NCBI GenBank assembly: GCA_965649205.1
Contig: CBFGJV010000007.1
Span: 17,466-81,465 of the forward strand
Length of the DNA: 64,000 bases
Reading direction: 5' to 3'
Source: a candidate division WOR-3 bacterium
GTDB taxonomy: Bacteria > Hydrothermota > Tepidihabitantia > Tepidihabitantales > Tepidihabitantaceae
Of the stretch, positions 19,953 through 62,086 are shown one piece after another (the first letter of the stretch is position 1; each line of letters opens with the position of its first letter). Both the position numbers and the translations under genes were made by a program. The notes under the pieces are model-generated. The model worked only from the letters and a program-made list of their open reading frames with translations, searched no databases and had not been told where the DNA came from.

Positions 19953-19961
19953 GGCAGAACC

Positions 19962-28786: not shown

Positions 28787-28861
28787 CTTGTCTGCAGTTA
28801 CAAGGATCGAGTCTATTACTGGCGCCAAAGAACCGGCGGCAAATAACCGATAAGGAGTCTA

Positions 28862-34647: not shown

Positions 34648-34660
34648 GTGGGTTGTGTCT

Positions 34661-39392: not shown

Positions 39393-39489
39393 GGCGGGAT
39401 TCTAAGACAGGCTGAGATGCAGTCAAGGCAAATTGACTCCGACAGGTGGTAAGTGTATTATCATAGTAAACTAACTCATTCTGTTGGTG

Positions 39490-46376: not shown

Positions 46377-46381
46377 GCAGT

Positions 46382-47059: not shown

Positions 47060-47826
47060 ATCTGACGGTTTTAGCGGTGGATGGTACCACTAAAGGGACA
47101 GTAGAGGTGCCAGATTCACTGTTTGGTCTTAAGCCTGAGAGGGGGCTTCTGTGGGAGACCGTACACGCTTACCTCTCTAATCAGCGTCAGGGTAATGCTT
47201 GTACCAAGACTAGAAGTACTGTTTCTGGCACCGGGAAAAAGCCTTATCGCCAAAAGCATACAGGGCGGGCACGACATGGCTCACGACGTTCTCCTATTTT
47301 TGTAGGTGGCGCCATCGCCTGGGGGCCGAAACCGCGTGAGTACTCCTTGTCTTTACCCAAGCACAAGAAGCGGTTAGCACTGCTGTCTGCTCTTTCAGCA
47401 CAGAGGGAGGAAGGCAGGATTGTTGTTGTAGAAGATTTTGAACTAAGCCAGCCCAAAACCAAGGAGCTGGTGAGCTTGCTTGCCGCAATGGGTATTTCAG
47501 ACAGGATGCAGGTAGCCACAATAACTCAGCCAGAGTCAGAACAGCAGCCGGTAGTTGAAGAGAGTTCGGTGCAACCTGGAGGCGAAGAAAAATTGACGGA
47601 AAGTGGAAAAGGTAAACTCAAGATGGAGCGGCAGCGTATTCTCCTACTGGTACCAGAGGCCAATCAGAATCTGGTAAGAGCTAGTCGTAACATTTCTTGG
47701 TTGACGGTGATGCCGGCTTCGCTTCTGAACACCTACGCTGTGCTTGCGCACAATCGGGTGATTTTTACAAGAAGCGCTCTGGAGCGGTTTATTTCTGTTC
47801 ATGGTAAGGAAGGACAGGCAGAATGA
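47056..47826 (+). CDS. rplD: 50S ribosomal protein L4 (with a ~40-aa acidic insertion)
   Basis: uL4 core (KKPYRQKHTGRARHGSRRSPIFVGGAIAWGPKPREY). Start overlaps the rplC stop (ATGA). Confidence 0.93.
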   Translation: MNLTVLAVDGTTKGTVEVPDSLFGLKPERGLLWETVHAYLSNQRQGNACTKTRSTVSGTGKKPYRQKHTGRARHGSRRSPIFVGGAIAWGPKPREYSLSLPKHKKRLALLSALSAQREEGRIVVVEDFELSQPKTKELVSLLAAMGISDRMQVATITQPESEQQPVVEESSVQPGGEEKLTESGKGKLKMERQRILLLVPEANQNLVRASRNISWLTVMPASLLNTYAVLAHNRVIFTRSALERFISVHGKEGQAE

Positions 47827-48110
47827 AGGACCCGGACACTATTATCCTTGGCGCCTTGGTAACGGAAAAGGCTGAGCGGCTCAAGGCCGGACATAATAAA
47901 TATACTTTTCGAGTCAATCCCAAGGCGAACAAAATTGAGATACGGCGTGCGGTTGAGCGGTTGTTCAAGGTACACGTGCAAGACGTTAAGGTGATGAATT
48001 TTCTGGGCAAACGCCGACGGATGGGGATGTTTTCCGGACGCAAACCGGATTGGAAGAAGGCAGTTGTTACCATAAAAGAAGGCGAAACAATACAGGCTCT
48101 GGAGCGGTGA
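47823..48110 (+). CDS. rplW: 50S ribosomal protein L23
   Basis: 95 aa uL23-like; ATGA overlap with the rplD stop. Confidence 0.93.
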   Translation: MKDPDTIILGALVTEKAERLKAGHNKYTFRVNPKANKIEIRRAVERLFKVHVQDVKVMNFLGKRRRMGMFSGRKPDWKKAVVTIKEGETIQALER

Positions 48111-48937
48111 TGGCACTGAAACAGTATCGACCGGTTACTCCGGGACAGAGACATCGCACCGGTTACACTTTTGAGGAGATTACGAGGACGGAACCTTACC
48201 GCCCCCTGCTTACGGTTATGCGTAAAAAGGGGGGTAGGAATAATCTGGGCCGTTTGACGGTAAAATGCCGTGGAGGCGGAGAGAAACGTCACTATCGTTT
48301 GATAGACTTTCAGCGCAGTAAGCGGGGTGTACTGGGGACGATTGTTTCTGTGGAGTACGATCCCAATCGTTCTGCTCGTATAGCCCTAGTTAAGTATGCG
48401 GATGGTGAGCACCGTTACATACTCCACGCTGAGGGGATGCGGGTCGGAGATCAGGTGGCGGCTGGTAGAGAATTGCCCATCAGAGTTGGTTATGCTATGC
48501 CCTTGTCTGATATACCAGCTGGAGTAGAGATCCATAACCTGCAGTTGGAACCTGGGAGCAAGTCCTTTTTGGTACGTTCAGCCGGTACAGCGGCTCAGCT
48601 AATGGCTAAAGAAGATAAGTGGGGGGTGGTGAGACTGCCTTCCGGGGAGATTCGCAAGTTTGATTTGGGTTGCTATGCAACCATAGGTAGGGTATCCAAG
48701 GCCGAACATAAGGATATTTCCATTGGTAAGGCAGGAAGGACCAGACATATGGGGCGTCGGCCTCGAGTCAGGGCAGTCGCCATGAACCCGGTTGACCATC
48801 CCATGGGTGGCGGCGAGGGTAAGAGCTCAGGAGGTAGGCACCCTTGCTCTGAGTCTGGTTTTCCGGCTAAAGGAGCCAAAACACGCAATCGGAAGAAGAA
48901 GTCAACGCGTCTGATTGTGCAGAGGAGAAAGAAGTAA
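48110..48937 (+). CDS. rplB: 50S ribosomal protein L2
   Basis: [16 protein letters not shown]-terminus at ATG 48110, overlapping the rplW stop. The ORF-track start at 48050 is an upstream extension. Confidence 0.96.
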
Positions 48938-48939
48938 CT

Positions 48940-49233
48940 ATGGGGCGTTCCATTAAAAAAGGACCCTATATTGACGAAAAGCTTTTTCGTCGCATAAAGC
49001 AGATGGCCGAATCGGGAGAGAAACGGACCTTGAAAACCTACGCACGACGCAGTGTTATTCCTCCAGAGTTTGTCGGTTTTACGCTCGCGGTGCATGCTGG
49101 CAACAGGTTTGTTCCGGTGTACATTACTGAGCGTATGGTAGGTCACAAATTAGGTGAATTTGCACCTACGCGCGTTTTCCGTGCTCACTCGGGGCCACGC
49201 AAGAAAGGTGAGGAGCAGGCACAGACCACATGA
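48940..49233 (+). CDS. rpsS: 30S ribosomal protein S19
   Basis: [15 protein letters not shown]...[28 protein letters not shown]. Confidence 0.96.
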
Positions 49234-49616
49234 TAGAAGCAAAAGCAGTATCCAGATTCCAACGAGGTTCAGCGAAGAAGCTCCGACTGGTATGCGAATT
49301 GGTACGCGGAAAGGAAGTTCCTGAGGCAATGCGCATTTTACACTTCTTGGCTAAGCCAACCAAAGCTCCGGTGTTGAAAACACTACGTTCGGCGGTTGCC
49401 AATGCCATTTCTCTGGCCGGTAAGGCTAGGCTGAGCGAAAAGGATTTGGTAATTACCGACATACGAGCAGATCAGGGTCCAATGATGAAACGCTGGCGTC
49501 CTGGTCCCCGCGGAATGGCTTCCATCATACGTAAGCGTACTGTGCATGTGACGGTGAAAGTTTCGGCAAAAGAGCAGACTAAAGAACAGCCCCGGAGATC
49601 AAAAGGTAAGGACTAG
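49230..49616 (+). CDS. rplV: 50S ribosomal protein L22
   Basis: [21 protein letters not shown] uL22 N-terminus; C-terminal basic tail. Confidence 0.95.
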
Positions 49617-49617
49617 T

Positions 49618-50256
49618 ATGGGACAAAAGACGCATCCTTTGGGCTTCCGTTTGGGTATAACCAAAGGTTGGAAGTCAGCGTGGTTCGATAAGAAGAATTA
49701 TCTGACTTATCTGCATGAGGACCTGCAGATCAGGCAGTACATAGAGGCCAAACTGCCGGAGGCCATGATCTCCAATATAGAAATCAGACGGGTGGCCAAT
49801 CGTACCACCGTTACTATTTTTACGGCTAGACCCGGCATGGTTTTTGGTGCTCGACGGCAGAACCTGGAACTATTGCGAGAAGAGATAAAGAGATTGGTGG
49901 GCAGAGATGTGCAATTACTTGTAGAGGTGGTGCGGGTGCCTGAGTTGGAGGCAAAACTTGTGGCCCAGAGTATAGCTAGGCAGTTGGAGCAACGTGTGGC
50001 TCATCGCCGAGCGATGAAGAGAGCTGTCACTCAGGCACTCAGGCTTGGGGCACTCGGTATTAAGGTGATGGTAGCAGGTCGTCTGGGTGGGCGGGAAATA
50101 GCGCGTAGTGAGTGGTATCGCGAAGGTCGAGTCCCTTTGCATACACTGAAGGCAGATATTGACTACGCAGTGGATGTAGCAAAGACTATTGCGGGTACTG
50201 TGGGAGTAAAGGTTTGGATTTATAAAGGCGATATAGCTCTAGAACAGAAGGCGTAG
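49618..50256 (+). CDS. rpsC: 30S ribosomal protein S3
   Basis: [23 protein letters not shown]. Confidence 0.96.
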
Positions 50257-50260
50257 TATT

Positions 50261-50689
50261 ATGTTGATGCCCAAACGCGTAAAGTATCGCAAGGCGCAAA
50301 GAGGCCGGAGGAGCGGCAAGGCTACTGCGGCTAATCGGGTGGATTTTGGCGAGTTCGGATTGATGGCCTTGGAGCCGGCCTGGATAACTGCCAAGCAGAT
50401 TGAAGCGGCCAGGTTGTGCTTGTCCAAGGTACTCAAACGGGCCGGAAAGTTGTGGATAAGGATTTTTCCGGACAAACCGGTTACCAAGAAAGCAGCTGAG
50501 TCTCGTATGGGTAAAGGCAAGGGTACGCCCGAGTTCTATGTGGCCGTAGTTAAACCAGGAACTGTCATGTTCGAGTTAGGTGGGCTTTCAGAGGCGGAGG
50601 CTCGTGCGGGTCTGGCTCTGGCTGCAAGCAAGATGCCATGTCGTACGCGTTTTGTGATGCGACAGGAGATGAGTTATGAAGGCTTCTGA
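50261..50689 (+). CDS. rplP: 50S ribosomal protein L16
   Basis: [17 protein letters not shown] uL16 N-terminus. Confidence 0.96.
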
Positions 50690-50894
50690 GTTGCGCGAGC
50701 TTAGTACAGAAGAATTGGCCCGGCGTTTAGCAGAGTTGCGGGATGAATTGTTCAAGTTAAGATTGCGCCGGGCCAGTGAACCTTTGCCTAATCCACTGCG
50801 GTTGCGGATGTTGCGTCGCGATATTGCACGTTGTCTAGGCATTATGCGGGAGCGGCAGGTGTCTGAGAAACCAGCGGTGAGGAATGATGGATAG
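50676..50894 (+). CDS. rpmC: 50S ribosomal protein L29
   Basis: [31 protein letters not shown]. Confidence 0.93.
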
Positions 50895-51126
50895 GAAGCG
50901 CAGGACGGTGATAGGTACGGTGGTTTCTACGGCAATGCAGAAAACCGCGGTGGTTTTGGTAAACCGGCTGGAACTGCATCCAAAGTACAAAAAGTACGTG
51001 CGTCGGCGAACCAAGCTTTACGCACACGACGAAAACGATGAATGTCAGGTAGGTGACCAGGTGTTGCTAATGGAGACGAGACCGCTGTCCAAATTGAAAC
51101 GCTGGCGGGTGGTGAAGAAGATATGA
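50884..51126 (+). CDS. rpsQ: 30S ribosomal protein S17
   Basis: [34 protein letters not shown]. Confidence 0.95.
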
Positions 51127-51491
51127 TTCAAGAATACAGTCGTTTGGTGGTTGCAGATAATACCGGAGCACGCATAGCGATGGTGATTCATGTTTACGGC
51201 GGCTCCAAACGCAAATTTGGATATCTGGGTGATACGGTATTCGTGACGATAAAAGATGCCATACCATCGGGGCCGATAAAGAAAGGTGACAAGGCAAAGG
51301 CGGTTATCGTCAGAACAAGAAAAGAGAGTAGAAGACCGGATGGAAGCTATGTGCGTTTTGACGATAATGCCTGTGTGTTGATTGATGACAAAGGGGAGCC
51401 GCGGGGCACAAGAGTATTCGGGCCGGTAGCGCGTGAGCTGCGTGAACGGAGGTTTACGAAGATTGTATCACTAGCCGCGGAGGTGGTGTAG
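51123..51491 (+). CDS. rplN: 50S ribosomal protein L14
   Basis: [17 protein letters not shown] uL14 N-terminus. Confidence 0.96.
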
Positions 51492-51814
51492 TGAATCTAC
51501 GGAAGGGCGATCTAGTCGAAGTTATAGCTGGCGACGAACGTGGACGCCGCGGCAAGATTCTCCGTTTGGAAGCCGACAGGAAAACGGGACGGGTGAGGGC
51601 AATTGTGGATGGTCTTAACTTGGCTAAAAAACATCAACGTCCTCAGGGGGCTACCAAGCCTGGCGGAATTATGGACCTGCCCAGTCCTATAGATATTTCT
51701 AATCTTGTGCTTTTGTGTCCGAAGTGCGGTAAGAAGGCTAAAGTTAGGCGGGAGCCGCACGAAGGTAGGCGGGTGCGGGTCTGCCGCGAATGTGACGAGA
51801 TAATTGACGCATGA
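51491..51814 (+). CDS. rplX: 50S ribosomal protein L24 (C-terminus carries a CxxC-x18-CxxC motif)
   Basis: GTG start. KOW region ([21 protein letters not shown]). C-terminal [34 protein letters not shown]. Confidence 0.93.
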
Positions 51815-52356
51815 TACCACGATTGAAAGAACAGTATTTGAAAAAGATAGTGCCTGCATTGATAAAGGAATTCGGGTACAAGAACAGGCATCAGGTACCA
51901 AGACTACTAAAGGTGGTAGTGAATGTAACTACCAAGGATGCGGTTGCCGATCCAAAGGTGTTGGACATTATCGCTGAGGACTTGGCTAAGATTACAGGAC
52001 AGAAGCCGGCACGTACTCAAGCTAAGCGCGCTATCTCTGCGTTTAAAATACGCAAGGGCATGCCATTGGGATTGCGTGTGACTTTGCGCGGTGATCGTAT
52101 GTATGAGTTTATAGATCGATTCTTCAATTTTGCCGCGCCTCAAATCCGAGATTTCCAGGGGTTTTCACCCGATTCGTTCGATGGTCGCGGCGGGTACTCT
52201 TTGGGTTTGTCTGAGCAGTTGATTTTCCCCGAAATTGAGGCGGCAAAAGTGAAAAAGGTAACCGGGATGAACATAACTTTTCAAACCAACGCCCGGCATG
52301 ATGACGAAGCTAGGGCACTGCTGGCTGCACTTGGCTTGCCCTTCAGGAGGAAGTAG
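51811..52356 (+). CDS. rplE: 50S ribosomal protein L5
   Basis: [25 protein letters not shown] uL5 N-terminus. Confidence 0.96.
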
Positions 52357-52359
52357 AGA

Positions 52360-52545
52360 ATGGCTAGACTCTGTCTTATTGTAAAATTCAAGCGCACACC
52401 TAAGTTTAAGGTGCGTAAGCATAACCGCTGCTTGCGCTGTTTCCGGGCGCGGGCAGTCTATGCTAAGTTTGGTCTATGTCGTCTATGTTTCCGGGAGTTG
52501 GCTCTGAGGGGTGAGATTCCGGGCGTGCGTAAGGCTACTTGGTAG
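52360..52545 (+). CDS. rpsZ: 30S ribosomal protein S14 type Z (zinc-binding, 61 aa)
   Basis: [25 protein letters not shown], the Cys4 short form of uS14. Confidence 0.95.
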
Positions 52546-52556
52546 GAGGAGTTGAG

Positions 52557-52946
52557 TTGGACCCGATTGCCGATTTTTTGACCCGTATTAGAAATGGTAT
52601 TGCCTGCAAGAGCAGGCAGGTGCGTGTACCTTATTCTAAGATGAAGTATGAATTGGCGCGTATTTTGTTGGAAGAAGGTTATATAAGCAATTTCCAGGTG
52701 GAAGGCGAAAAAGTGCACAAGAATCTGGTGATAACCTTGAAGTACACCGAAGACGGCAGTTCGGTAATAAGAGGCTTGGAACGTGTATCTAGGCAGAGTC
52801 GTCGGGTGTATGTTGACGCAAACTCGATTCCTCGTGTTTTGGGCGGGCTGGGGCTGGCCATAGTGACCACTTCTAAGGGCGTGATGACGGGACGCGATGC
52901 GGAACGTGAGCGTGTAGGTGGAGAACTTATTTGTAAGGTGTGGTGA
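52557..52946 (+). CDS. rpsH: 30S ribosomal protein S8
   Basis: TTG at 52557 with AGGAGGA 6 nt upstream gives (M)DPIADFLTRIRNG, the canonical uS8 N-terminus. The ORF-track start at 52539 overlaps rpsZ. Confidence 0.93.
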   Translation: MDPIADFLTRIRNGIACKSRQVRVPYSKMKYELARILLEEGYISNFQVEGEKVHKNLVITLKYTEDGSSVIRGLERVSRQSRRVYVDANSIPRVLGGLGLAIVTTSKGVMTGRDAERERVGGELICKVW

Positions 52947-52949
52947 GAA

Positions 52950-53519
52950 ATGGCAAAAGCCTATCGGCCGATTGAGGTTATTCCGGGGGTCCAAGTAACG
53001 ATAACAGAGGGAGCGGTTACGGTGAAAGGCAAACTCGGTTCCCTGAGTGTTCCGATCCCTCCCGGTCTTGTGGTCAGTACGGATGGGAAGTATATCACCG
53101 TGGAGCCGGGACCTGACGTTGGCCGGATACTGGTTGGTACGATGCGTTCTCATCTACGCAATGCCATGATAGGTGTGACTAATGGATTTGAGAAAGTGCT
53201 TCAGGTAAGGGGTATGGGCTATCGTGTGCAGAAGACTAAAGAAGGCGTACAGATATTATGTGGTTTTTCCCATCCGGTGGACGTGGCTGCTCCCGAAGGT
53301 ATTACTTTCGAGGTTACCCAGAGTCCTAATCCGGATGATGTCAAGGAGCAGATGTTTGAGATTGCTGTTCGGGGCTTAGACAAACAGAGAGTAGGAGAGG
53401 TTGCTGCGCGAATCCGGGCCATTAAACCTCCTGACCCTTACCGGGGAAAGGGGATTCGCTATCGCGGAGAATACGTTCGTAAGAAAGCCGGCAAGCGAGC
53501 GGTAGTGGCGCAGGCGTAA
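52950..53519 (+). CDS. rplF: 50S ribosomal protein L6
   Basis: MAKAYRPIEVIPGVQVTITEGAVTVKGKLGSL uL6 N-terminus; 189 aa. Confidence 0.96.
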   Translation: MAKAYRPIEVIPGVQVTITEGAVTVKGKLGSLSVPIPPGLVVSTDGKYITVEPGPDVGRILVGTMRSHLRNAMIGVTNGFEKVLQVRGMGYRVQKTKEGVQILCGFSHPVDVAAPEGITFEVTQSPNPDDVKEQMFEIAVRGLDKQRVGEVAARIRAIKPPDPYRGKGIRYRGEYVRKKAGKRAVVAQA

Positions 53520-53543
53520 TCTGCTTGAATTGAACGAAGATTA

Positions 53544-53575
53544 CAGTGCGGCGAGATGCCGCACTGTTTGTCTTT
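53544..53575 (+). terminator. Rho-independent terminator ending the rpsJ-rplF block
   Basis: Perfect 9-bp stem CAGUGCGGC-[GAGAU]-GCCGCACUG (53544-53566) followed by UUUGUCUUU, 25 nt after the rplF stop. Confidence 0.75.
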
Positions 53576-53661: not shown

Positions 53662-53691
53662 TTGACAGATCGCAACTGCTACTGCTATTAT
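53662..53691 (+). promoter_or_regulatory. Near-consensus sigma70-type promoter for tamA
   Basis: TTGACA (53662-53667), 18-nt spacer, TATTAT (53686-53691), 48 nt before the tamA ATG at 53739 (AGGTGG RBS). Confidence 0.5.
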
Positions 53692-53738: not shown

Positions 53739-55475
53739 ATGATAAGTCTGCTTCATCTCTTGACACTGTTTCTTATCGGAACAGGAACTGCTGATTCAGT
53801 AGAATCGGTGAAGTTTGTGGGCGGGCATGCTTTTTCGGCGCGGGTTCTGGGTTCACAGGTCAGTCTGCGACGTGGACAGATTCTGGAGGAACAAAAGATT
53901 GAAGAGTCTGCACGTAATCTGGAACATTTCTTGCAGGCAAATGGTTTTCGCAGGGCCCGTGTCAGTTGGTACCTGAAACCGGGAAAAAGGCACAACATTG
54001 TAGTGTTTCAGATTAATGAGGGAAGGAGAGCAAGGGTGGGTTCATTGAATATTTTGGGGGTGCAGAGTTTTGACAGTGTACGTCTGGTTAGGCTGTTGCC
54101 GGTTTCGCCTGGGAAATTTTACACATCAGCCGCGCTGGAGCTTTGCGAAGAAGCTGTAAGAACCTTCTACCAAAATTCTGGGTTTCCTTTTGTTGAGGTG
54201 CAGGCCAATTGGAGTTTTGATGTAGAAAACGGTAGACGGGAAGAAGTAAACGACACCCTGGCTCATTTGGTGTTGAAGGTAGCAGAAGGGACGCGCTGCT
54301 ATCTGGGCGATATCAGGGTAAGAGGGCTACGCACAATTCGTCCTGCTACTGTGACTAGGGTTACGGAATTGCGGCCTGGCGAAATGTTCAGTCAACGACG
54401 TTTGCAGGAAGCCAGTCGCAGACTCTATGCCACTCATTTGTTCCAGCGCGTTTTCTATCATGTTCTCTGGCCTGATTCAACAAAGGACACGGTTGCTGTC
54501 CGGTTTGACGTTGTAGAACAGGAATATAGAGCGTTTTCGGTTGGAGCAGGGTTGGAAGCACCCCCGTGGCGAGCAGTGGCGTCTGGCGGGTGGGAGCATA
54601 ATAATATTCTAAACCGGGGCCAGCAGCTTGAAATAGCCGCGGACTTTGGTTTTGATGTCAAGAGAAACTATCGTGCCTCCATAGATTTGCACTACCGTGT
54701 TCCGTATTTGGTCTTGACCAGGGTTGATTTTCAATCCCATCCTTTTTTCTACTGGGAAAAGGTTGATTCATCGTTTTGGCGCGAATACGGTATCGAAAAT
54801 GGTCTTAGTCACAGTCTTTCCAAGTACGTTAACCTGGGGTTGTCTAACCGGTTTCGTCTGGTAGCTGATACCAGTCGGGGCATTACAAACCTGCTGGGAT
54901 TGATTGCCCAGCATGATTCCCGTAACGATATTTTTGAACCGAGGGAGGGTATGTATCTTAGATTTGGAGCAGAGGCGGCGGGGGGAGTGTTACGAGGAGA
55001 CAATGATTTTTACCGCCTGACCGGTGAGCTGAGGAGTTTCTATTTCGTAGGTTGTGTACTTGCTTGTAGGGTTTTCGCCGGCAGGTGTTTCCCCTATGGG
55101 AGAACCCAGCGCATTCCGTATTATGAGGGGTTTACTTTGGGTGGGCGCAACAGCCTACGGGGTTACGCAGATCAATCGCTTGGTCCAGATTCAGGCGTGG
55201 CAGGAAGGTTCGGTCCGGCGGTTTTGAATCACAATTTGGAGTTGCGTCTCGGTTATTTGTGGGGACGGTTGGGTGCGGTTTTGTTTTGGGACGGGGGAAT
55301 GGTAATTGATTGGCCGGTTGGTAAGGATATGCCGACGTATGAACAATCTGCTGGCGCAGGACTCCGGATCCGTACCCCTATTGGTCCTTTGCGGTTGGAC
55401 TGGGGAAGACGTTTGAGAAATGTACCTCCCGAAGATAGAGGTAGATTCTATCTAGGCTTGTTGCATGTTTTTTAG
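53739..55475 (+). CDS. tamA: TamA-like Omp85-family outer-membrane protein (about 3 POTRA domains plus beta-barrel)
   Basis: 578 aa (TamA-sized rather than the ~800-aa BamA). Signal peptide, POTRA-like repeats, and a C-terminal Omp85/surface-antigen barrel ending in an aromatic-rich strand (FYLGLLHVF). Followed by a TamB-like gene. Confidence 0.65.
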   Translation: MISLLHLLTLFLIGTGTADSVESVKFVGGHAFSARVLGSQVSLRRGQILEEQKIEESARNLEHFLQANGFRRARVSWYLKPGKRHNIVVFQINEGRRARVGSLNILGVQSFDSVRLVRLLPVSPGKFYTSAALELCEEAVRTFYQNSGFPFVEVQANWSFDVENGRREEVNDTLAHLVLKVAEGTRCYLGDIRVRGLRTIRPATVTRVTELRPGEMFSQRRLQEASRRLYATHLFQRVFYHVLWPDSTKDTVAVRFDVVEQEYRAFSVGAGLEAPPWRAVASGGWEHNNILNRGQQLEIAADFGFDVKRNYRASIDLHYRVPYLVLTRVDFQSHPFFYWEKVDSSFWREYGIENGLSHSLSKYVNLGLSNRFRLVADTSRGITNLLGLIAQHDSRNDIFEPREGMYLRFGAEAAGGVLRGDNDFYRLTGELRSFYFVGCVLACRVFAGRCFPYGRTQRIPYYEGFTLGGRNSLRGYADQSLGPDSGVAGRFGPAVLNHNLELRLGYLWGRLGAVLFWDGGMVIDWPVGKDMPTYEQSAGAGLRIRTPIGPLRLDWGRRLRNVPPEDRGRFYLGLLHVF

Positions 55476-55496: not shown

Positions 55497-58400
55497 ATGA
55501 AGAAACGTCAGGCGGCGCGGGCGGGTGTTGTAATTGCAGGGTTATTAGGAGTAATAGTCCTGGGGGCTGTCTTGCTGAGTTGCTTCCGGCAGCAGATAGC
55601 GCGGTTGGTAGCCGACGCGGCGGTTCACTACGTCGGTCATTTACTCTCGGTAAAGATTACTTACAGACGTTTTTCTGGGAATTTATTGCGTACACCTAGG
55701 TTCGAGGACGTGGGCGTAGTTTTCGGGAAGGATTCCGTTAAAGCAAGTGAGATAACATTTAGCTATGATCCGCTGGGGTTCTTGCGCGGTTCAGTTCCGA
55801 TTTCTGAGGTTGAAATACGAAACCCTACTGTGTTTATACATACGCAGTCAAGAGCCGGGGACAGAGAGCGCACATCTAAAACTGGCTGGAGGATAGGCAG
55901 ATATCCTCGTTGGTATTTGCGTCGATTGCACTTGGACGGCGGAATGTTGTTCATGGACAATGAGCTAAGACTGGAGTCACTGGCCTTGAATGTGCGTGCG
56001 CATTCGAGGGTAGACCTTTTGAAGGCAGAACTTAGAGGAGGACGAGGAAAGTTCGTTAGGGAAAACATCAGTCTGCAGGAAATGCATGCCGATTTGATTA
56101 TGACCGCTGATTCTCTTGTGCTGGAACAGCTGGGTGGGTCTACTTCTGGTTCGAACGTAGTGGGCAGACTGAGTATTAATTTGAGTCGGCAGGAGCTGAC
56201 GGTGGTCCTAGACAGTGTCGTTATTGACTTGGCTGAGTTTGTGTCCATTCCGGGCAGAATTGGGATAAAGGGTTCGGGAACGAAAGGTGCTGTGAGACTT
56301 GAGGCAGAGGGTAATTACGTAATTGAAGGATTAAGGCCTGCTAACGTCTGTCTGCCTAGGATTGCAGGTAAACTCAGTTTGTGCGACAAGGGTATTGTTT
56401 TTGAAGCAGCAGGAGCAGATTCAGAACTGGGTTCCCTTGAGGCTCGGGGTACGTTTGAACTGAAGGAAAGACGCTATTCCGTGGAATTGAAAGTGACAGG
56501 AATGAAGCTAAGTGCGATTAGACCTTCGTTTGCTCCTGTTCGAATGACCTTTGACTTGCAGGCGAGAGGATACGGAGGCGACTCGGTGGCATTTTGGGCT
56601 GGGGCTCAGGTTCCGGAAGTGGGAGTGGAAACTTTACTGGTTTCCGGAAGGTACTTTCGTAATCGGTTTGGGTTGAAGCAGCTTGAACTACGGGGTGGGG
56701 TAGGAAGGCTCACTGTATCTGGTGAGGTGGAGCTGGGTGGGTTAGGAAGTAAAATTTTCTTGTTATCCATACCTGCTTGTTCAGTCAAGGCGGACAGTTT
56801 TGATTTGGGGCTCATAGCAGGATTGTGGTGCATTCCTGTTGCGGGCACACTCCGAGGAATATTGAGTGGGGCAGGTACGGTAGACAGCTTCGCTTTGCAG
56901 GGGAGTATGAGGGCTTCGGGGGTGAAGCTGTTCGGTCTCGGTATCACTTCTGCGCTGGCGGAAGTTGATGTAACTGTAAACAGTGGACTACGTGGTAGAC
57001 TCGTGCTGGGAGCTGAGGGACTCAAAGGAATGGGTATCGAGGCTGATGCGGCGCAATTTGTTTTGCTTGATTCTGATGTGGATTTTCGCATTGACCGACC
57101 AGAGGACAGAGTCCTGGTCGGGGGGAATTTATCGTTGACTAAGAACAGAATCGAATGTGAAGTGCGCAGGCTGGAGTTTGCAACGCGAGAAGAAACGTTG
57201 ACGGCAAACAGGCCATTTGAGTTTTATCTGGATAAGGATTCGGTGTTGGTTCGAGGGGTTAGTCTGCGGGCAGCTGACGGGGAACTGCAGTTTCAAGCTA
57301 CTGTGGGTGCTCGGGTTCGTCGTGTGGAAGCAAAAGGAAGCAACTTCAACCTCCGCAAGTTGCAGAAGTTGTTACACTTGCCAACGGAAGTGTGGGGAAC
57401 GTGTGATTTTGAGGTGTCGGGACAAGATACTTATCATTTGCGAACAGTAGTGAATGACCTAGAGGTTCCTTCAATAGGAATGAGGATGAAGAATCTGACG
57501 GCAGAGCTGGCAGCGAACGATAGCTGGGTAGAAATCAGAGATTTCAGGTTTGTTCATGTGAAAGACACCACCCGCGTTCATGGTAGTTTTTCTTATAACC
57601 CTGCGCATGGTCTAGTTCCTCGCCGTGTGAGCATACAGGCGGACATTGCTGACCCGGGAAGTTGGCCTATGTTTTTTCTCAGGCCAACGTTAGAGTTGGT
57701 GGAAGGCAAGCTGTTCGCCCGGCTCAGCTGGGAAGGAGATGTTTCAGAGCCGAACTTGAAAGGCAGGTTCAGAGTCGTATCAGGAAGATTGAAAGTTCCG
57801 GCGTTGAATCTGGTCTTAGAGCGAACAAATGCGGAATTCTCGGTACAGGGCAAGCGAATAGAGTTGGAGAAGTTGTCTGGTACTACCGGGGCTGGGTTGG
57901 TTACCGCCAGTGGTTTTGTAGACCTAGATGTGGGTTGGCTGGTGGATTCGTTACGGTTCAGGATAAGGCCGGAAGGGACAATAGTGAATCCTTTGCCGGA
58001 AGTATATGCAGTGATAGGAGGCGATATAGCGGTTGTCTGGCAACGGGGTTCTCCTTTGTCTTTGGAGGGTACGTTTGACGTAGCGGAAGCGCTGCTGGCT
58101 ATTGGCTTTGGTCAGTCTGCGATTGCCGGGTCAAGTACAGATTCCGTCATCTACGACCTGCGAATTAGAGCTGAGCGCGGAGTTTGGCTACGAAACCCGA
58201 TGGCGGACATTGAAATGTCTGCCGACCTGTTTTTGCGTAGAACTATGGAACGACAGATGTTCTCCGGTACTTTGAAGTCGCGGCAAGGAAGTATTTATTA
58301 CCTGGACCATACTCTGAGAGTGACTCGTGGTACTATAGGCTTTGAGGGTATAGAACGCCTTGATCCAACATTGGATATTGAGGCTGAGTTGCCGGTGCGT

Positions 58401-58892
58401 TCTCGTTCGCGAGCTGGCGGGAGAGCACCGGATAAAATTATCCTGCATATTGCTGGAAGTTTGGAAAAGCCAGAGTTCAAATTTTCTGCTGAACCCCAGT
58501 TGTGGGATGAAGGACAAATTATTGCCTATCTGGGACTGAACGTTACTGCTGCTGATGTTGAACTTATGGACAATACGCAGAGGGCAACCCAATATTTGTC
58601 GGAGCGGCTTCTGGCTTATTTGCAGACGGAGGCGACTAAGCAGGTGCGACGGTTTGTGGGCTTAGACGAACTTCGGTTTGAGAGCGTTTTAGCAGGAGGG
58701 GAAGGTTATAGGGTAACTGTGGGCAAGTACGTGGGACGTAACCTGTATGTTACCTACACTCAGAATCTTGCCGGCGTGATGCAACCGGCATTTTCAATAG
58801 AATACTACCTAGACCGTCGCAATGAGATTGTCGGTGAGAAATCTCCTGCGGGACGGTATTCCATCAGGTATCGGTATAAGTTGAGATACTGA
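55497..58892 (+). CDS. tamB: TamB-like translocation and assembly module protein (DUF490 C-terminal region)
   Basis: 1131 aa. N-terminal signal anchor, long beta-rich body, DUF490-like C-terminus (GKYVGRNLYVTYTQNL...IEYYLDRRNEIVGE...RYRYKLRY). Confidence 0.65.
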   Translation: MKKRQAARAGVVIAGLLGVIVLGAVLLSCFRQQIARLVADAAVHYVGHLLSVKITYRRFSGNLLRTPRFEDVGVVFGKDSVKASEITFSYDPLGFLRGSVPISEVEIRNPTVFIHTQSRAGDRERTSKTGWRIGRYPRWYLRRLHLDGGMLFMDNELRLESLALNVRAHSRVDLLKAELRGGRGKFVRENISLQEMHADLIMTADSLVLEQLGGSTSGSNVVGRLSINLSRQELTVVLDSVVIDLAEFVSIPGRIGIKGSGTKGAVRLEAEGNYVIEGLRPANVCLPRIAGKLSLCDKGIVFEAAGADSELGSLEARGTFELKERRYSVELKVTGMKLSAIRPSFAPVRMTFDLQARGYGGDSVAFWAGAQVPEVGVETLLVSGRYFRNRFGLKQLELRGGVGRLTVSGEVELGGLGSKIFLLSIPACSVKADSFDLGLIAGLWCIPVAGTLRGILSGAGTVDSFALQGSMRASGVKLFGLGITSALAEVDVTVNSGLRGRLVLGAEGLKGMGIEADAAQFVLLDSDVDFRIDRPEDRVLVGGNLSLTKNRIECEVRRLEFATREETLTANRPFEFYLDKDSVLVRGVSLRAADGELQFQATVGARVRRVEAKGSNFNLRKLQKLLHLPTEVWGTCDFEVSGQDTYHLRTVVNDLEVPSIGMRMKNLTAELAANDSWVEIRDFRFVHVKDTTRVHGSFSYNPAHGLVPRRVSIQADIADPGSWPMFFLRPTLELVEGKLFARLSWEGDVSEPNLKGRFRVVSGRLKVPALNLVLERTNAEFSVQGKRIELEKLSGTTGAGLVTASGFVDLDVGWLVDSLRFRIRPEGTIVNPLPEVYAVIGGDIAVVWQRGSPLSLEGTFDVAEALLAIGFGQSAIAGSSTDSVIYDLRIRAERGVWLRNPMADIEMSADLFLRRTMERQMFSGTLKSRQGSIYYLDHTLRVTRGTIGFEGIERLDPTLDIEAELPVRSRSRAGGRAPDKIILHIAGSLEKPEFKFSAEPQLWDEGQIIAYLGLNVTAADVELMDNTQRATQYLSERLLAYLQTEATKQVRRFVGLDELRFESVLAGGEGYRVTVGKYVGRNLYVTYTQNLAGVMQPAFSIEYYLDRRNEIVGEKSPAGRYSIRYRYKLRY

Positions 58893-60832
58893 TGGGAAAT
58901 AAGCAGCGTAGAGAGACTGATGCGTACGGAGCTACTTGGCAAGAGCCGGTGTCGTCAGATGCTTTTTCCTCGCCGATGGCTTTCTGCAATGTAGTAATCC
59001 GTCGTACCCGGCTTGATGCGCTAACCTACCATTATGATCCGGCTACATCGGGAGAATTGCATGTTGGAGACTGCGTGCAGGTGACGCTGCGGGGTCGGAA
59101 GGTACAGGGCATAGTCACCGAAATTATCAAAGAATCCGAGGTGAAAAAAACTCTTCCTGTCCTTAAGCTACTGGAGCGTTCTCTCGTTAGCCAGCAGTTG
59201 CTGCTCTTGTTCCGGAGGGTTGCAAAATACTACTGGGCAAGATTGGGAGAGGTACTCAAAGTTGCCCTTCCGCCTAACATAGGCGCCTATCGAACTCGTC
59301 GCACCAGAGACGTAGATACGAGTCAGCTCGTAGTCTGTGAGGATGCTACAGACCGGTCGTCTGTCAGTGAGGTACGTTTTCAAGATAACCGATTTCGTGT
59401 GTTTTTTACCTTTGCTGTTGCGTTAAATTCAACGGTGGAAGAGTTCTTACAGGTACGCGGCAGGCAAGGAGGAGTGATTATTCTGCTCCCCATTGAAAAG
59501 TTGCGGGACTGGAAATCTTGTTTGCATTCTCGTTTTGGACAGCGAGTAGTTGAGTATCATCATGAGATGAGCGAAGCACAGAGGAAACGCGCCTGGCAAC
59601 AGATACGCAATCAGCATAATCCTTTAGTTCTTGGTGTGAGATCTGCTGTATTCGTGCCGGTTCAGCGGCTCTCCGGTGTTGTCGTAGTAGAAGAGCATAG
59701 TCCTCGTTTTAAGGAGGAGCGACATCCTGCTTATCACGCCCGAGACGTAGCCATAGCAAGGGCCAGAGTAGCCGAATGTCCGGTTCTTCTCTGTGATTAC
59801 ACGCCTTCTCTGGAAACTTGGTACAATTTGAAAGCCGGAGTTTATGTTCCATTGGGAACAGCCATTGCTGGAGATCACTCTGCCCGCGTTTTTGTTGTTG
59901 ATATGAACCTGCACCGCGAAGGGCTTTTTTCTGAGAGGCTAAGACGCGAAATGGCGAAGGCACTGGAAGGTGGTAGTGTTATTCTCTACATGAATCGACA
60001 AGGATTGTCGCGTTATGTCGTTTGTACGGAGTGTGGCTGTGTTCTGCAGTGTAAACAGTGCAATATTCCGCTGGTACTTTATGCAGATCAGACAATGGTG
60101 TGCAGCTTGTGTGGGGCAAAGGTTCCGGCACCGGAATGCTGTCCTAATTGTCAGGGCTATTGCTTCGAACTTCGCGCCCCGGGAATAGAAATGTTAGTAC
60201 GTGAGGTAAGAAAGCTTTTTCCCCGAGCGCGGGTAGAGAAAGTTAGTGAGCGTGGAAAGCTGCCGTCTGCGCTGCCGGCAGAGCCGGGTACCGTCTTTGT
60301 CGGAGCACAGGCGCTCCTTTATCGCAGCTGGCCAAGCACTACGCGATTGGTAGCTGCGGTGCGGTTTGACTACGATTTGATGCTGCCAGATTTCCGTTCT
60401 CAAGAAAGGGCTTTTCAGACGCTGTATGAAATGGTGTACAGAGCGAAAGCTCTAGGAAGTAAGCTTTTGGTTCAGACTTGGCGACCAGATAACCCGGCTG
60501 TGCGTTGTGCCGTTGAACAGGATCTGACAGGATTCTTGGAACAGGAATTGCAGGCACGAGAGCAGATTGGTTTTCCGCCGGTAAAAAGGCTGGCTCTTAT
60601 CGAACTTTCCGGCAAGAACGAGAGGGCTTGCAGGCATGCAGAAAGGGTATCGGCGCTTCTTAGCCAATATCCAGGTTTAGACACTCTTGGACCTGTATCT
60701 GTACGGTCCGGCCTTTACCGACTGTTGGTGAAGATTCCTCGTTCCACCAGCTTAGACCGATTGATTACTCCGGACCAGCTGTCGACACCAGGGGTGGAGG
60801 TTAGGGTGGACATCGACCCTATGAGGTTATAG
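58892..60832 (+). CDS. priA: Primosomal protein N' (PriA) homolog with degenerate Walker A and B motifs
   Basis: Conserved PriA architecture. Cys-rich region CTECGCVLQCKQCNIPLVLYADQTMVCSLCG...CCPNCQG. C-terminal domain present. Walker A position reads AVALNSTV (expected GVTGSGKT). DEEH position reads VEEH. Confidence 0.8.
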   Translation: MGNKQRRETDAYGATWQEPVSSDAFSSPMAFCNVVIRRTRLDALTYHYDPATSGELHVGDCVQVTLRGRKVQGIVTEIIKESEVKKTLPVLKLLERSLVSQQLLLLFRRVAKYYWARLGEVLKVALPPNIGAYRTRRTRDVDTSQLVVCEDATDRSSVSEVRFQDNRFRVFFTFAVALNSTVEEFLQVRGRQGGVIILLPIEKLRDWKSCLHSRFGQRVVEYHHEMSEAQRKRAWQQIRNQHNPLVLGVRSAVFVPVQRLSGVVVVEEHSPRFKEERHPAYHARDVAIARARVAECPVLLCDYTPSLETWYNLKAGVYVPLGTAIAGDHSARVFVVDMNLHREGLFSERLRREMAKALEGGSVILYMNRQGLSRYVVCTECGCVLQCKQCNIPLVLYADQTMVCSLCGAKVPAPECCPNCQGYCFELRAPGIEMLVREVRKLFPRARVEKVSERGKLPSALPAEPGTVFVGAQALLYRSWPSTTRLVAAVRFDYDLMLPDFRSQERAFQTLYEMVYRAKALGSKLLVQTWRPDNPAVRCAVEQDLTGFLEQELQAREQIGFPPVKRLALIELSGKNERACRHAERVSALLSQYPGLDTLGPVSVRSGLYRLLVKIPRSTSLDRLITPDQLSTPGVEVRVDIDPMRL

Positions 60833-60916
60833 AAAGTTACGATCTGGCTTTTGCTTGACGGCTGTCAATTTGGTTTCTATGCTTACTGATAAAGCTATAT
60901 TACCCGGGAGGAACAA

Positions 60917-62086
60917 TTGTCTGAGAGACAGAAATTGATGCGAAAAAGCAAGACCGGCCTGCAAGCGCAACTGGTTAGGTCACCTGCTTCAAGGCGTGGG
61001 GCTGCGGTGTCCGTGTCGGTGATAAAGGCTGATATCGGAGGTTATGTAGGGCATTCTGCTAGCCATCCGGAGATTCTGGGCAGGGCCCGGGAACTTTTGG
61101 AAAAAGCCAAAAGAAAAGGAGTGCTGATAGATTTTCACGTAACCAACTGCGGAGATGACCTCGATTTGATAATGACCCATACAAAGGGTAATGATAGTCC
61201 GGCTGTCCACAAGCTGGCGTGGGACGTATTTACTAGTTGTACCGCCTTGGCTGCGGAATTGAAGCTCTATGGTGCGGGGCAAGATATATTGGTCGATGCT
61301 TTCTCGGGAAATGTCAAGGGTATGGGCCCTGGGGTGGCCGAGATGACTTTTGTAGAGCGCAAGTCTGAGCCAATTGTTGTATTCTGTGGTGATAAATGTG
61401 CGCCGGGAGCGTGGAATTTACCGCTTTTTCGCATGTTTGCCGATCCTTTTTGTACGATTGGATTGGTGATAGATCCGACGATGCATGACGGTTTTCGTTT
61501 TGAAGTGCACGATGTTCATGGCGGTAAGGATATTTTGCTTGCTTGCCCTGAAGAGATGTACGACTTGCTGGTTCTGGTGGGTGCACCAGAGAACTACGTA
61601 ATCAAGAACGTATTTAGGAAAACCGGGGATATCGCAGCCACCAGTTCTACCCAGAAACTTGCCCTTATTGCAGGGCGGTACGTAGGCAAGGATGACCCGG
61701 TTATGATAGTGCGATGTCAAGCAGGCTTCCCTGCTGTAGGTGAAGTTCTGGAGCCTTTTGCTTTTCCGCATCTGGTTTCTGGTTGGATGCGAGGTTCTCA
61801 TTATGGGCCGCTTATGCCCGTGTCGCAGGAAGAAGCCACTCCTTCCAGGTTTGACGGGCCGCCGCGAGTAATAGCTTTGGGTTTTCAGCTAAATGATGGG
61901 AGATTGGTTGGACCGAGAGATATGTTTGCCGACCCGTCTTTCGATTCGGCTCGTAAGCAGGCCAACGAAGTTGCAGATTATCTGCGGAGGCATGGCCCAT
62001 TCGAACCACATCGACTTGGCTTGAGGGACATGGAATACACTACTTTGCCACAGGTACTGGAAAAGCTCATTGGTAAGCGAAAGTAG
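60917..62086 (+). CDS. fbp: Fructose-1,6-bisphosphate aldolase/phosphatase (class V FBPase)
   Basis: SVIKADIGGYVGHSASHPE matches the N-terminal signature of the bifunctional FBP aldolase/phosphatase family. Start is either TTG 60917 (GGGAGG upstream) or GTG 61007. Confidence 0.8.
   Translation: MSERQKLMRKSKTGLQAQLVRSPASRRGAAVSVSVIKADIGGYVGHSASHPEILGRARELLEKAKRKGVLIDFHVTNCGDDLDLIMTHTKGNDSPAVHKLAWDVFTSCTALAAELKLYGAGQDILVDAFSGNVKGMGPGVAEMTFVERKSEPIVVFCGDKCAPGAWNLPLFRMFADPFCTIGLVIDPTMHDGFRFEVHDVHGGKDILLACPEEMYDLLVLVGAPENYVIKNVFRKTGDIAATSSTQKLALIAGRYVGKDDPVMIVRCQAGFPAVGEVLEPFAFPHLVSGWMRGSHYGPLMPVSQEEATPSRFDGPPRVIALGFQLNDGRLVGPRDMFADPSFDSARKQANEVADYLRRHGPFEPHRLGLRDMEYTTLPQVLEKLIGKRK

What the first reader, a model, noticed from the sequence alone, without database searches (positions are those of the whole stretch)
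58892..60832. PriA homolog with inactivated Walker A and Walker B motifs
The protein is collinear with PriA (3'-DNA-binding region, Cys-rich zinc region, C-terminal domain). At the P-loop position it reads AVALNSTV instead of GVTGSGKT. The DEEH box reads VEEH. Loss of the Walker A lysine and the Walker B aspartate predicts no ATPase/helicase activity. If real, this is a pseudo-helicase PriA that may act only as a replication-restart scaffold.
Basis: partly seen in the sequence, partly recalled or inferred. Interest (0 to 1): 0.55.

Follow-up and report, generated by a model that had tools for sequence, protein, structure and literature searches.

The report
Motor-dead PriA replication-restart protein (WOR-3)
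This gene encodes a well-conserved version of the bacterial replication-restart protein PriA that has lost every sequence element needed to burn ATP, so it probably works only as a DNA-fork-binding scaffold, as already shown for Deinococcus PriA, but here in a different, uncultured phylum (WOR-3).

Summary
ORF 58892-60832 (+, 646 aa) is a PriA: TIGR00595 scores 296 bits (cut-off 230), and the AlphaFold model matches solved PriA at TM 0.77. It has no P-loop in any reading frame. DEEH reads VEEH, and motifs III, V and VI are also degraded. This is not an artefact or a pseudogene. At least 59 related proteins (40-56% identical, from independent assemblies) share the same losses. They keep the 3' DNA-binding domain, all eight zinc cysteines, the aromatic-rich loop, motif IV and the C-terminal domain. 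Every named member is 'candidate division WOR-3'. Other WOR-3 bacteria carry an intact PriA in the same Omp85-TamB-PriA gene order, which was seen in none of 80 outgroup loci. The dead version is therefore most likely the orthologue, not an extra copy. The most likely function is ATP-independent fork recognition and helicase recruitment. Precedents are E. coli priA300 and the Deinococcus radiodurans PriA pseudohelicase (Lopper 2015). The idea is therefore already known. New here are a second, probably independent and more degraded lineage, and a graded decay series within one phylum. I could not test whether a second intact priA exists elsewhere in the genome.

The parts
58892..60832 (+). priA homologue, 646 aa, intact ORF. 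The ATG overlaps the TGA stop of the upstream TamB gene (TGATG).
58976..58978 (+). Alternative start codon (Met29, MAFCNVV...). Homology and confident structure begin here. Residues 1-28 are unconserved with pLDDT below 50.
58976..59275 (+). 3' DNA-binding domain (residues 29-128). It contains RTRLDALTY (38-46), identical to the intact WOR-3 PriA P0144.
   Evidence: (PF17764, 56.4 bits)
59276..59386 (+). Short unconserved linker (residues 129-165) where many PriAs carry a winged-helix domain. pLDDT is below 50.
   Evidence: (best fit is the E. coli WH-deletion PriA 6dcr)
59408..59437 (+). Remnant of motif I / Walker A (TFAVALNSTV, residues 173-182). The loop between strand 1 and helix 1 is shortened by 3 residues and has no Gly, Lys or Thr signature.
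59483..59509 (+). Motif Ia remnant (LLPIEKLRD). The invariant Pro is kept. The canonical Glu is Ile201 in this protein (72% kept across the clade). LTPQ is lost.
59687..59698 (+). Motif II / Walker B reads VEEH (266-269) instead of DEEH. The first Asp is lost across the clade. The third-position Glu268 and His269 are kept.
59708..59746 (+). Aromatic-rich-loop region FKEERHPAYHARD (273-285). K, R, P, R and D are invariant in the clade.
   Evidence: ARL role from PMC5175346 (title and abstract)
59795..59809 (+). Motif III reads DYTPS instead of SATPS.
59990..60019 (+). Motif IV MNRQGLSRYV. N368, R369 and G371 are invariant in the clade. Its position corresponds to the E. coli ssDNA-pore residues R427/R428.
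   Evidence: PMC13594977
60023..60151 (+). Cys-rich region with four CxxC pairs (C378, 381, 387, 390, 404, 407, 417, 420), all invariant. The two conserved CRR histidines of intact PriAs are lost.
60302..60325 (+). Motif V reads GAQALLYR instead of GTQMxAKG.
60428..60451 (+). Motif VI reads EMVYRAKA instead of QxAGRAGR. Only the first Arg (R517) is kept.
60497..60829 (+). PriA C-terminal domain (residues 536-646).
   Evidence: (PF18074, sub-threshold)
55497..58892 (+). TamB-family gene immediately upstream. This adjacency is conserved in WOR-3 with both intact and motif-less PriA.
53739..55475 (+). Omp85/POTRA gene, first gene of the conserved Omp85-TamB-PriA array.
53662..53691 (+). Near-consensus sigma-70-like promoter (TTGACA-18-TATTAT, 11/12, with TG) after a strong hairpin at 53543-53567. 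It may drive the Omp85-TamB-PriA unit. This is a pattern match only.

Best explanation
This is the orthologue of priA in a lineage of candidate division WOR-3 that has lost its ATPase and helicase engine while keeping the PriA architecture. Shown from sequence: the P-loop is deleted, the Mg-binding Asp of Walker B is replaced, and motifs III, V and VI no longer match, so ATP binding and hydrolysis by the canonical SF2 site is not possible. Also shown: the protein stays under purifying selection, keeps the two RecA-like lobes as folds, and keeps the 3'-end-binding domain, the two-zinc Cys-rich region, the aromatic-rich loop, the motif IV Arg/Gly and the C-terminal domain. Inferred mechanism: the protein recognises abandoned forks or D-loops through the 3'BD and the helicase-core DNA surface. 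It holds lagging-strand-template ssDNA in the pore lined by motif IV and the CRR. It then serves as an ATP-independent platform that recruits the replicative helicase DnaB, directly or through unknown partners. Without a motor it can act only on forks whose lagging-strand template is already single-stranded, or it depends on another helicase or nuclease to expose that strand.
For: Family and fold. Motif loss. Of 109 positions at least 90% conserved in 37 intact PriAs, 56 are kept and 35 lost, with 19 of the lost positions inside motifs I, Ia, II, III, V and VI. Purifying selection: 64 invariant columns among 27 sequences at 40-56% identity. Lobe conservation (0.44 and 0.43) equals that of the 3'BD (0.44) and CRR (0.46), whereas in intact WOR-3 PriAs the lobes are the most conserved parts (0.62-0.64). 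Clade-wide occurrence in independent assemblies; core-clade bootstrap 100/100. Orthology: Omp85-TamB-PriA synteny is shared by motif-less (window, L081, L086, P0043 contig) and intact WOR-3 PriAs (L082-L085) and was found in none of 80 outgroup loci. Shared signatures RTRLDALTY, NRRG[LF]SR[YF] and YKE. The core clade's sister group is WOR-3-only in 80 of 100 replicates. Functional precedent: E. coli K230R, K230A and K230D PriA still assemble primosomes and support the PriA/PriB pathway (PMC5778457; PMC13594977). D. radiodurans PriA lacks ATPase and helicase activity but binds ssDNA, forks and DnaB (PMC4504706).
Against: No biochemistry was done, so the loss of activity and the retained DNA and partner binding are inferred. 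I could not scan any complete genome of the clade for a second, intact priA or for dnaB, dciA, priB or dnaT. Two CRR histidines that are invariant in intact PriAs are lost in the clade. One aligns with E. coli H455, which stabilises the partner-docking CRR-UP state. The E. coli CRR-switch mechanism may therefore not transfer. The precise placement of the core clade in the PriA tree is sensitive to long-branch effects.
Confidence: 0.75

Rival explanations
1. The gene is an extra, specialised paralogue, for example a regulator or competitor at forks or a defence-related decoy, coexisting with an intact PriA elsewhere in the same genome.
For: Intact PriAs labelled WOR-3 exist (P0295, P0302, P0303). 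No complete genome of the clade could be scanned. Only 64 kb of this contig was available, and it holds one PriA.
Against: The motif-less gene occupies the same lineage-specific Omp85-TamB-PriA slot as the intact WOR-3 PriA, as expected for orthologues in different sublineages. None of the 120 closest intact PriAs shares a contig length with any motif-less PriA contig, including the 3.26 Mb contig carrying P0127. A partially decayed second WOR-3 group nests within the intact WOR-3 group (90/100), which fits in-place decay.
Confidence: 0.12
2. The gene is a decaying pseudogene or functionless relic.
For: The catalytic motifs are lost, and the branch leading to the clade is long (root-to-tip about 1.0 against about 0.6 for intact PriAs).
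Against: The 646-codon ORF is intact here and in about 59 clusters at 40-56% identity. There are 64 invariant columns, including all 8 zinc cysteines. Domain-wide conservation equals that of the DNA-binding domains. The stop/start overlap with TamB is typical of expressed operon genes.
Confidence: 0.03
3. The protein is still an active motor that uses a non-canonical nucleotide site.
For: Glu268 and His269 of DEEH and the first Arg of motif VI remain conserved. The review notes reports of a second, weaker nucleotide site in E. coli PriA whose location is unknown.
Against: The P-loop is physically shortened with no Gly or Lys. The Walker B Asp, the motif III Ser-Ala, the motif V Lys-Gly, and the Gln, both Gly residues and second Arg of motif VI are all lost. 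A single K230R change already abolishes activity in E. coli.
Confidence: 0.03
4. The motif loss is an assembly or sequencing artefact (indels) in this contig.
For: A TonB-dependent-receptor-like gene elsewhere in the window is split into two overlapping frames (9396-11192 and 11069-11878), so indel errors in the assembly cannot be ruled out in general.
Against: No P-loop occurs in any frame. The reading frame is continuous. The same motif state is seen in dozens of independent assemblies.
Confidence: 0.01

Closest known systems
Deinococcus radiodurans / Deinococcus-Thermus PriA pseudohelicase (Lopper, Boone & Morrow 2015, PMC4504706)
   Same: Both are PriA homologues with degraded Walker A and B motifs that are retained across a whole lineage. 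The D. radiodurans protein was shown to lack ATPase and helicase activity yet bind ssDNA, forks and DnaB. That is the functional model adopted here.
   Different: In Deinococcus-Thermus a recognisable P-loop remains, with Lys replaced by Arg in GKT. Here the loop is deleted and motifs III, V and VI have also decayed. The taxon differs: all named members are WOR-3. The clade shares synteny and sequence signatures with intact WOR-3 PriAs, which points to an independent loss. No Deinococcus-Thermus sequence could be obtained for a direct comparison.
E. coli PriA ATPase-dead variants (priA300 K230R, K230A, K230D)
   Same: These are motor-dead PriAs that still assemble primosomes and support restart through the PriA/PriB pathway.
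   Different: They are engineered single-residue changes in a protein with otherwise intact motifs and a winged-helix domain. They depend on PriB and DnaT, which are not known outside some Proteobacteria (the last point is from my own knowledge and was not tested here).
Canonical PriA (TIGR00595; solved structures 4nl4, 6dgd, 6dcr, 8fak)
   Same: The domain order and fold match: 3'BD, two RecA-like lobes with an inserted 8-Cys zinc region, and a CTD.
   Different: There is no ATP site and no winged-helix domain. The WH domain is also absent from intact WOR-3 PriAs of about 650 aa, so that loss came before the motor loss.
Intact WOR-3 PriA (P0144 / P0297 / P0302 group)
   Same: Same phylum label, same Omp85-TamB-PriA locus, same WH-less architecture of about 650 aa, and shared signatures.
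   Different: These keep GVTGSGKT, DEEH, SATPS, GTQxVTKG and QxxGRAGR.
Actinobacterial PriA (NCBIfam PRK14873-type models)
   Same: It is described as 'smaller and very divergent' (PMC1193525). From memory, UniProt flags mycobacterial PriA as lacking detectable helicase domains; I did not verify this here.
   Different: The window protein matches these models much more weakly (up to 153 bits) than the general PriA models (296-336 bits). It is not a member of that group.

Membership tests
PriA (replication restart protein, TIGR00595 / primosomal protein N') | Whole-protein match above the curated equivalog cut-off | tested here: met
   TIGR00595 scores 295.8 bits against a 230.35 cut-off. A canonical 61-sequence HMM gives E = 1e-121.
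PriA (replication restart protein, TIGR00595 / primosomal protein N') | N-terminal 3' DNA-binding domain | tested here: met
   PF17764 scores 56.4 bits against a 22.7 cut-off, residues 45-127.
PriA (replication restart protein, TIGR00595 / primosomal protein N') | Two RecA-like lobes with the PriA fold and domain order | tested here: met
   The AF2 model has pLDDT 83.6 and pTM 0.80. Foldseek gives TM 0.73-0.77 to 8fak, 6dcr and 4nl4; the next non-PriA hits have TM 0.37 or below.
PriA (replication restart protein, TIGR00595 / primosomal protein N') | Cys-rich region with CxxC x4 binding two zinc ions | tested here: met
   Eight Cys at 378, 381, 387, 390, 404, 407, 417 and 420 are invariant in the clade. 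The PF18319 hit is sub-threshold. Zinc binding itself is not testable here.
PriA (replication restart protein, TIGR00595 / primosomal protein N') | C-terminal domain (PriA_C) | tested here: met
   The canonical HMM and TIGR00595 align to the last residues. PF18074 alone is sub-threshold (15.9 against 26.9).
PriA (replication restart protein, TIGR00595 / primosomal protein N') | SF2 helicase motifs I, II, III, V and VI (ATP binding and hydrolysis) | tested here: not met
   The motif I loop is deleted, DEEH reads VEEH, SATPS reads DYTPS, GTQMxAKG reads GAQALLYR, and QxAGRAGR reads EMVYRAKA. There are no PF00270, PF00271 or PF04851 hits.
PriA (replication restart protein, TIGR00595 / primosomal protein N') | ATP-dependent 3'-5' helicase activity and primosome assembly | not testable with these tools
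   This needs biochemistry or genetics.
PriA pseudohelicase (as defined for Deinococcus-Thermus, PMC4504706) | PriA homologue with Walker A and Walker B departing from consensus across a lineage | tested here: met
   None of 59 clade members has a P-loop, and the first Asp of DEEH is lost clade-wide.
PriA pseudohelicase (as defined for Deinococcus-Thermus, PMC4504706) | Lys to Arg substitution within an otherwise recognisable GKT P-loop | tested here: not met
   No P-loop remains in the core clade. In this protein the aligned residues are L178 and N179. One partially decayed WOR-3 relative (P0146) does read GAVGLDRT.
PriA pseudohelicase (as defined for Deinococcus-Thermus, PMC4504706) | Belongs to the Deinococcus-Thermus PriA lineage | tested here: inconclusive
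   All named relatives are WOR-3, and synteny and signatures link it to intact WOR-3 PriAs. No Deinococcus-Thermus sequence was available to place in the tree (one search gave none).
PriA pseudohelicase (as defined for Deinococcus-Thermus, PMC4504706) | No ATPase or helicase activity; retains ssDNA, fork and DnaB binding | not testable with these tools
   This is a biochemical definition.

The most novel reading that the evidence does not exclude
Loss of the PriA motor is not a Deinococcus oddity but a recurrent evolutionary outcome. WOR-3 alone holds intact, partly decayed (P-loop remnant GAVGLDRT, DDEH, SATPS kept) and fully motif-less PriAs at the same Omp85-TamB-PriA locus. Around 20 further motif-degraded PriA lineages appear scattered among intact ones in metagenomes. 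If so, the universally required function of PriA is ATP-independent fork recognition and helicase recruitment. The 56 kept and 35 lost invariant positions would then give a natural map of which residues serve the scaffold and which serve the motor, including a possibly rewired Cys-rich-region switch, since both conserved CRR histidines are lost.
Probability: 0.45. Interest if true: 0.6.

Novelty: new member of a known kind. Interest (0 to 1): 0.45.

Why it matters
[quoted passage not shown] Why the motor is so conserved when E. coli can restart without it is an open question. A second, apparently independent and more degraded pseudohelicase lineage bears on that question, because close relatives still have the motor at the same locus. 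It gives a natural comparison for separating PriA's scaffold function from its motor function. It identifies which conserved residues survive motor loss: the 3'BD, the aromatic-rich loop, the motif IV Arg, the zinc cysteines and the CTD. It also suggests that restart in these bacteria is limited to forks with an already single-stranded lagging template, or relies on another helicase. On the practical side, automated annotation as 'replication restart helicase PriA' overstates the activity of this clade.

Tried and rejected
2. An exact look-up of the window's own protein on contigs found nothing on record.
3. The third homology search, using a profile of the other degenerate lineages (A2), returned mostly ordinary PriAs and no informative names. 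Those lineages remain unidentified, and no Deinococcus-Thermus sequence was obtained.
4. The full NJ tree placed the core clade beside other fast-evolving motif-less sequences in 99/100 replicates. I treat this as probable long-branch attraction, because removing those sequences gives a WOR-3-only sister group in 80/100 replicates, and because synteny and signatures agree with that placement. No ML or site-heterogeneous method was available.
5. I considered a hidden frameshifted P-loop and rejected it.
6. I did not attempt dN/dS against the closest relative (56% amino-acid identity, L081) because synonymous sites would be saturated.
7. I rejected a functional link to TamB/Omp85 as an explanation for the motif loss, because intact WOR-3 PriAs show the same adjacency.
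8. ARAGORN found no tRNA genes in the window.
Full report
OBSERVATION. The window contains an uninterrupted ORF at 58892-60832 on the + strand, 646 codons ending in TAG. Its ATG overlaps the TGA stop of the upstream gene (TGATG). It is a PriA by four independent measures. Pfam PF17764 (PriA 3' DNA-binding domain) scores 56.4 bits against a 22.7 cut-off, with sub-threshold hits to the PriA zinc ribbon and C-terminal domain. NCBIfam TIGR00595 'replication restart helicase PriA' scores 295.8 bits against a 230.35 cut-off. Solved PriA chains 4nl4 and 6dgd match at E about 9e-48. An AlphaFold2 model built on 27 relatives (pLDDT 83.6, pTM 0.80) superimposes on PriA structures at TM 0.73-0.77. The best fit is the engineered E. 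coli winged-helix-deletion PriA 6dcr, and the next non-PriA hits have TM 0.37 or below.

MOTIFS. The DEEH box reads VEEH at residues 266-269 in pairwise, multiple and profile alignments. The P-loop is gone, not merely mutated. A profile of 61 intact PriAs cannot align its positions 119-244, which cover the winged helix and motif I, to the roughly 46 residues available. MAFFT places a three-residue deletion in the loop, with Lys aligned to L178 and Thr to N179. The model shows strand 170-173 followed by a four-residue turn and helix 178-189. There is no Lys between residues 124 and 202 and no Gly between 150 and 189. No strict or relaxed P-loop pattern occurs in any of the six frames across 58701-61000. 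Motif III (DYTPS for SATPS), motif V (GAQALLYR for GTQMxAKG) and motif VI (EMVYRAKA for QxAGRAGR) are also degraded. By contrast, 61 of 61 more distant database PriAs have G[VI]T[GSA][SA]GKT plus DEE[HQ]. All 80 genomic PriAs from many other phyla have DEE[HQ] and QxxGRxGR.

NOT AN ARTEFACT OR A PSEUDOGENE. The 59 closest database clusters (E of 1e-100 or better, 40-56% identity; from NCBI, JGI, ENA and Logan assemblies) all lack a P-loop and lack precomputed PF00270, PF00271 and PF04851 domains. Every hit from the 60th onward has them. An exhaustive profile search of 1.84 billion representatives found about 25 clusters at 50% identity belonging to this group. They form a clade with 100/100 bootstrap support in a tree built with the motif columns excluded. 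Within 27 members there are 64 invariant columns, including all eight zinc-ligand cysteines. In intact PriAs the two RecA-like lobes are the most conserved regions (mean pairwise identity 0.62-0.64, against 0.49 for the 3'BD, in intact WOR-3 PriAs). In the motif-less clade the lobes (0.44 and 0.43) are as conserved as the 3'BD (0.44) and the Cys-rich region (0.46). The extra constraint from the ATP site has been released, but the fold is still under selection. Of 109 positions at least 90% conserved in 37 intact PriAs, the clade keeps 56 and has lost 35, with 18 intermediate. Nineteen of the 35 lost positions lie inside motifs I, Ia, II, III, V and VI, and several more flank motif I. Kept positions include the aromatic-rich-loop residues (K274, R284, D285), motif IV (R369, G371), Glu268 of DEEH, the first Arg of motif VI, the cysteines, and C-terminal-domain residues.

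WHOSE GENE IT IS. Every named member of the core clade is annotated 'candidate division WOR-3 bacterium': P0023, P0121, P0127 and P0130. P0127 lies on a 3,261,475-bp contig, probably a closed genome. The window itself is ordinary chromosome: rpoC, rpsL/rpsG, recJ, PFOR subunits, adk/map, pyrG, lptC/A/B, rpoN, selB, r-protein genes L3 to L6, then Omp85, TamB, priA, class V FBPase, a MoxR ATPase and YceD. A near-consensus promoter at 53662-53691 follows a strong hairpin after the L6 gene. No convincing terminator lies before priA, and there is the stop/start overlap. Together these suggest an Omp85-TamB-PriA transcription unit, on pattern evidence only.

ORTHOLOGUE OR EXTRA COPY? The intact PriA scoring highest against the clade profile is P0144 (507.5 bits). 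It represents a group of WH-less proteins of about 650 aa that includes three sequences labelled WOR-3. So both states exist in the phylum. Intact WOR-3 PriAs (P0297; P0302 from GCA_039801565.1) sit directly downstream of Omp85 and TamB. So do the motif-less ones in the window, in L081 (56% identical), in L086 (GCA_040961665.1) and on the 280-kb contig carrying P0043. tblastn with the window's TamB and Omp85 found this adjacency in all six WOR-3 loci and in none of 80 outgroup loci. The core clade also shares derived signatures with intact WOR-3 PriAs. RTRLDALTY in the 3'BD is identical between this protein and P0144. NRRG[LF]SR[YF] follows motif IV. The aromatic-rich loop reads YKE instead of YKQ. 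A second, partly decayed WOR-3 group (P0145, P0146, P0147, P0153, P0154, P0167, P0185) nests with the intact WOR-3 group in 90/100 replicates. In the full NJ tree the core clade joins other long-branch degenerate sequences, which I regard as probable long-branch attraction. With those removed, its sister group is WOR-3-only in 80/100 replicates. None of the 120 intact PriAs closest to P0144 shares a contig length with any motif-less PriA contig, and the 64-kb window has only one PriA. Together this makes in-place decay of the sole priA the best reading. I could not scan a complete genome, so a second copy elsewhere is not excluded; I put it at about 12%.

LIKELY MECHANISM. Shown: the canonical ATP site is absent, and the DNA-binding and partner-binding architecture is retained. 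Established knowledge: E. coli PriA K230R/A/D lacks ATPase, helicase and translocase activity yet assembles primosomes and supports the PriA/PriB pathway, though not the PriA/PriC pathway (PMC5778457; PMC13594977). D. radiodurans PriA has no ATPase or helicase activity but binds ssDNA (Kd about 215 nM), forks (about 109 nM) and DnaB (PMC4504706). In E. coli, motif IV arginines bind lagging-strand ssDNA inside a pore closed by the Cys-rich region, and a duplex lagging strand blocks that closure unless PriA unwinds it. Inference: the WOR-3 protein recognises abandoned forks or D-loops through the 3'BD and the helicase-core surface. It holds lagging-template ssDNA via the conserved motif IV and CRR. 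It recruits the replicative helicase without using ATP. It is therefore restricted to forks whose lagging template is already single-stranded, or depends on another helicase or nuclease. One caveat: two CRR histidines invariant in intact PriAs are lost in the clade, together with a one-residue deletion. One of them aligns with E. coli H455, which stabilises the partner-docking CRR-UP state. The E. coli switch may therefore be rewired.

COMPARISON WITH WHAT IS KNOWN. [quoted passage not shown] The 2018 review treats Deinococcus as the only exception to conservation of PriA helicase activity. No paper in the searchable library mentions PriA together with WOR-3. The WOR-3 case differs in degree. 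Deinococcus-Thermus keeps a recognisable P-loop with Lys replaced by Arg, whereas here the loop is deleted and five motifs are degraded. It also apparently differs in origin, given the WOR-3 synteny and signatures. I could not place a Deinococcus-Thermus sequence in the tree, so independence is inferred rather than demonstrated. Actinobacterial PriA is described as 'smaller and very divergent' (PMC1193525). The window protein matches those NCBIfam models far more weakly than the general PriA models. The missing winged-helix domain is not part of the motor loss, because intact WOR-3 PriAs and several other phyla also lack it.

VERDICT. This is a new, probably independent and more extreme member of a known kind, the PriA pseudohelicase. 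Its added value is that the phylum holds an intact, partly decayed and fully decayed series at one syntenic locus. Interest is moderate (0.45). A replication-restart specialist would not be astonished, given priA300 and Deinococcus, but would find the natural scaffold-versus-motor residue map and the apparent recurrence of motor loss useful.

Noticed in passing
Database proteins P0198/P0404/P0405, P0272, P0219/P0260, P0220/P0234, P0156/P0160/P0214, P0164, P0170/P0175, P0201/P0221, P0172: About 20 further PriA representatives outside the core clade have partly or fully degraded motifs I and VI. Some keep DEEH, SATPS or GTQM. They are interleaved with intact PriAs in the tree, which suggests several more independent motor losses. 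Their organisms are unnamed. The search profile was built from motif-less sequences, so it enriches for such hits.
   Followed up: partly
Database proteins P0145, P0146, P0147, P0153, P0154, P0167, P0185: This is a second WOR-3 group of PriAs with intermediate decay. P0146 reads GAVGLDRT / DDEH / SATPS, and P0154 reads DNEH / SATPS with motifs I, V and VI lost. The group nests with intact WOR-3 PriAs (90/100), so the phylum shows a graded decay series.
   Followed up: partly
window 9396-11192 and 11069-11878 (+): A TonB-dependent-receptor-like gene (CarboxypepD_reg plus Plug, then a weak beta-barrel hit) is split into two ORFs in different frames that overlap by 124 nt. This is either a real frameshift or pseudogene, or an indel error in the assembly.
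   Followed up: no
window 46373-53519, 19236-20708, 3044-3910: The ribosomal-protein cluster runs from L3 to L6 and then stops at a strong hairpin (53543-53567), where L18/S5/L30/L15/secY would normally follow. The adk and map genes, usually at the end of that operon, lie about 30 kb upstream. rpsL-rpsG is not followed by fusA/tuf. The r-protein superoperon is fragmented in this genome.
   Followed up: no
window 26885-29902: selB (selenocysteine elongation factor) lies next to an AIRS-family gene that may be selD. ARAGORN found no tRNA gene, including tRNA-Sec, anywhere in the 64 kb.
   Followed up: partly
window 39484-45816 (+): This is a giant 2110-aa ORF with an N-terminal M14 zinc carboxypeptidase domain followed by many Ig-like, fn3 and SusE-like repeats, probably a surface or secreted protease. 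The neighbouring 744-aa ORF (34403-36637) has no Pfam hit.
   Followed up: no
window 1-64000: GC skew is positive in every 2-kb bin (+0.07 to +0.31) and most long genes are on the + strand. The whole window therefore seems to lie on the leading strand of one replichore.
   Followed up: no
window 60917-62086 (+): A class V fructose-1,6-bisphosphatase (bifunctional FBP aldolase/phosphatase type, PF01950, E = 1e-178) lies directly downstream of priA. From my own knowledge this enzyme is typical of archaea and deep-branching bacteria. It is not conserved next to priA in the related loci examined.
   Followed up: partly
window 4848-6605 (-): A recJ gene (DHH, DHHA1 and RecJ_OB domains) is present in the window. 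A 5'-3' ssDNA exonuclease is one candidate for exposing lagging-strand template ssDNA for a motor-less PriA. This is speculative.
   Followed up: no
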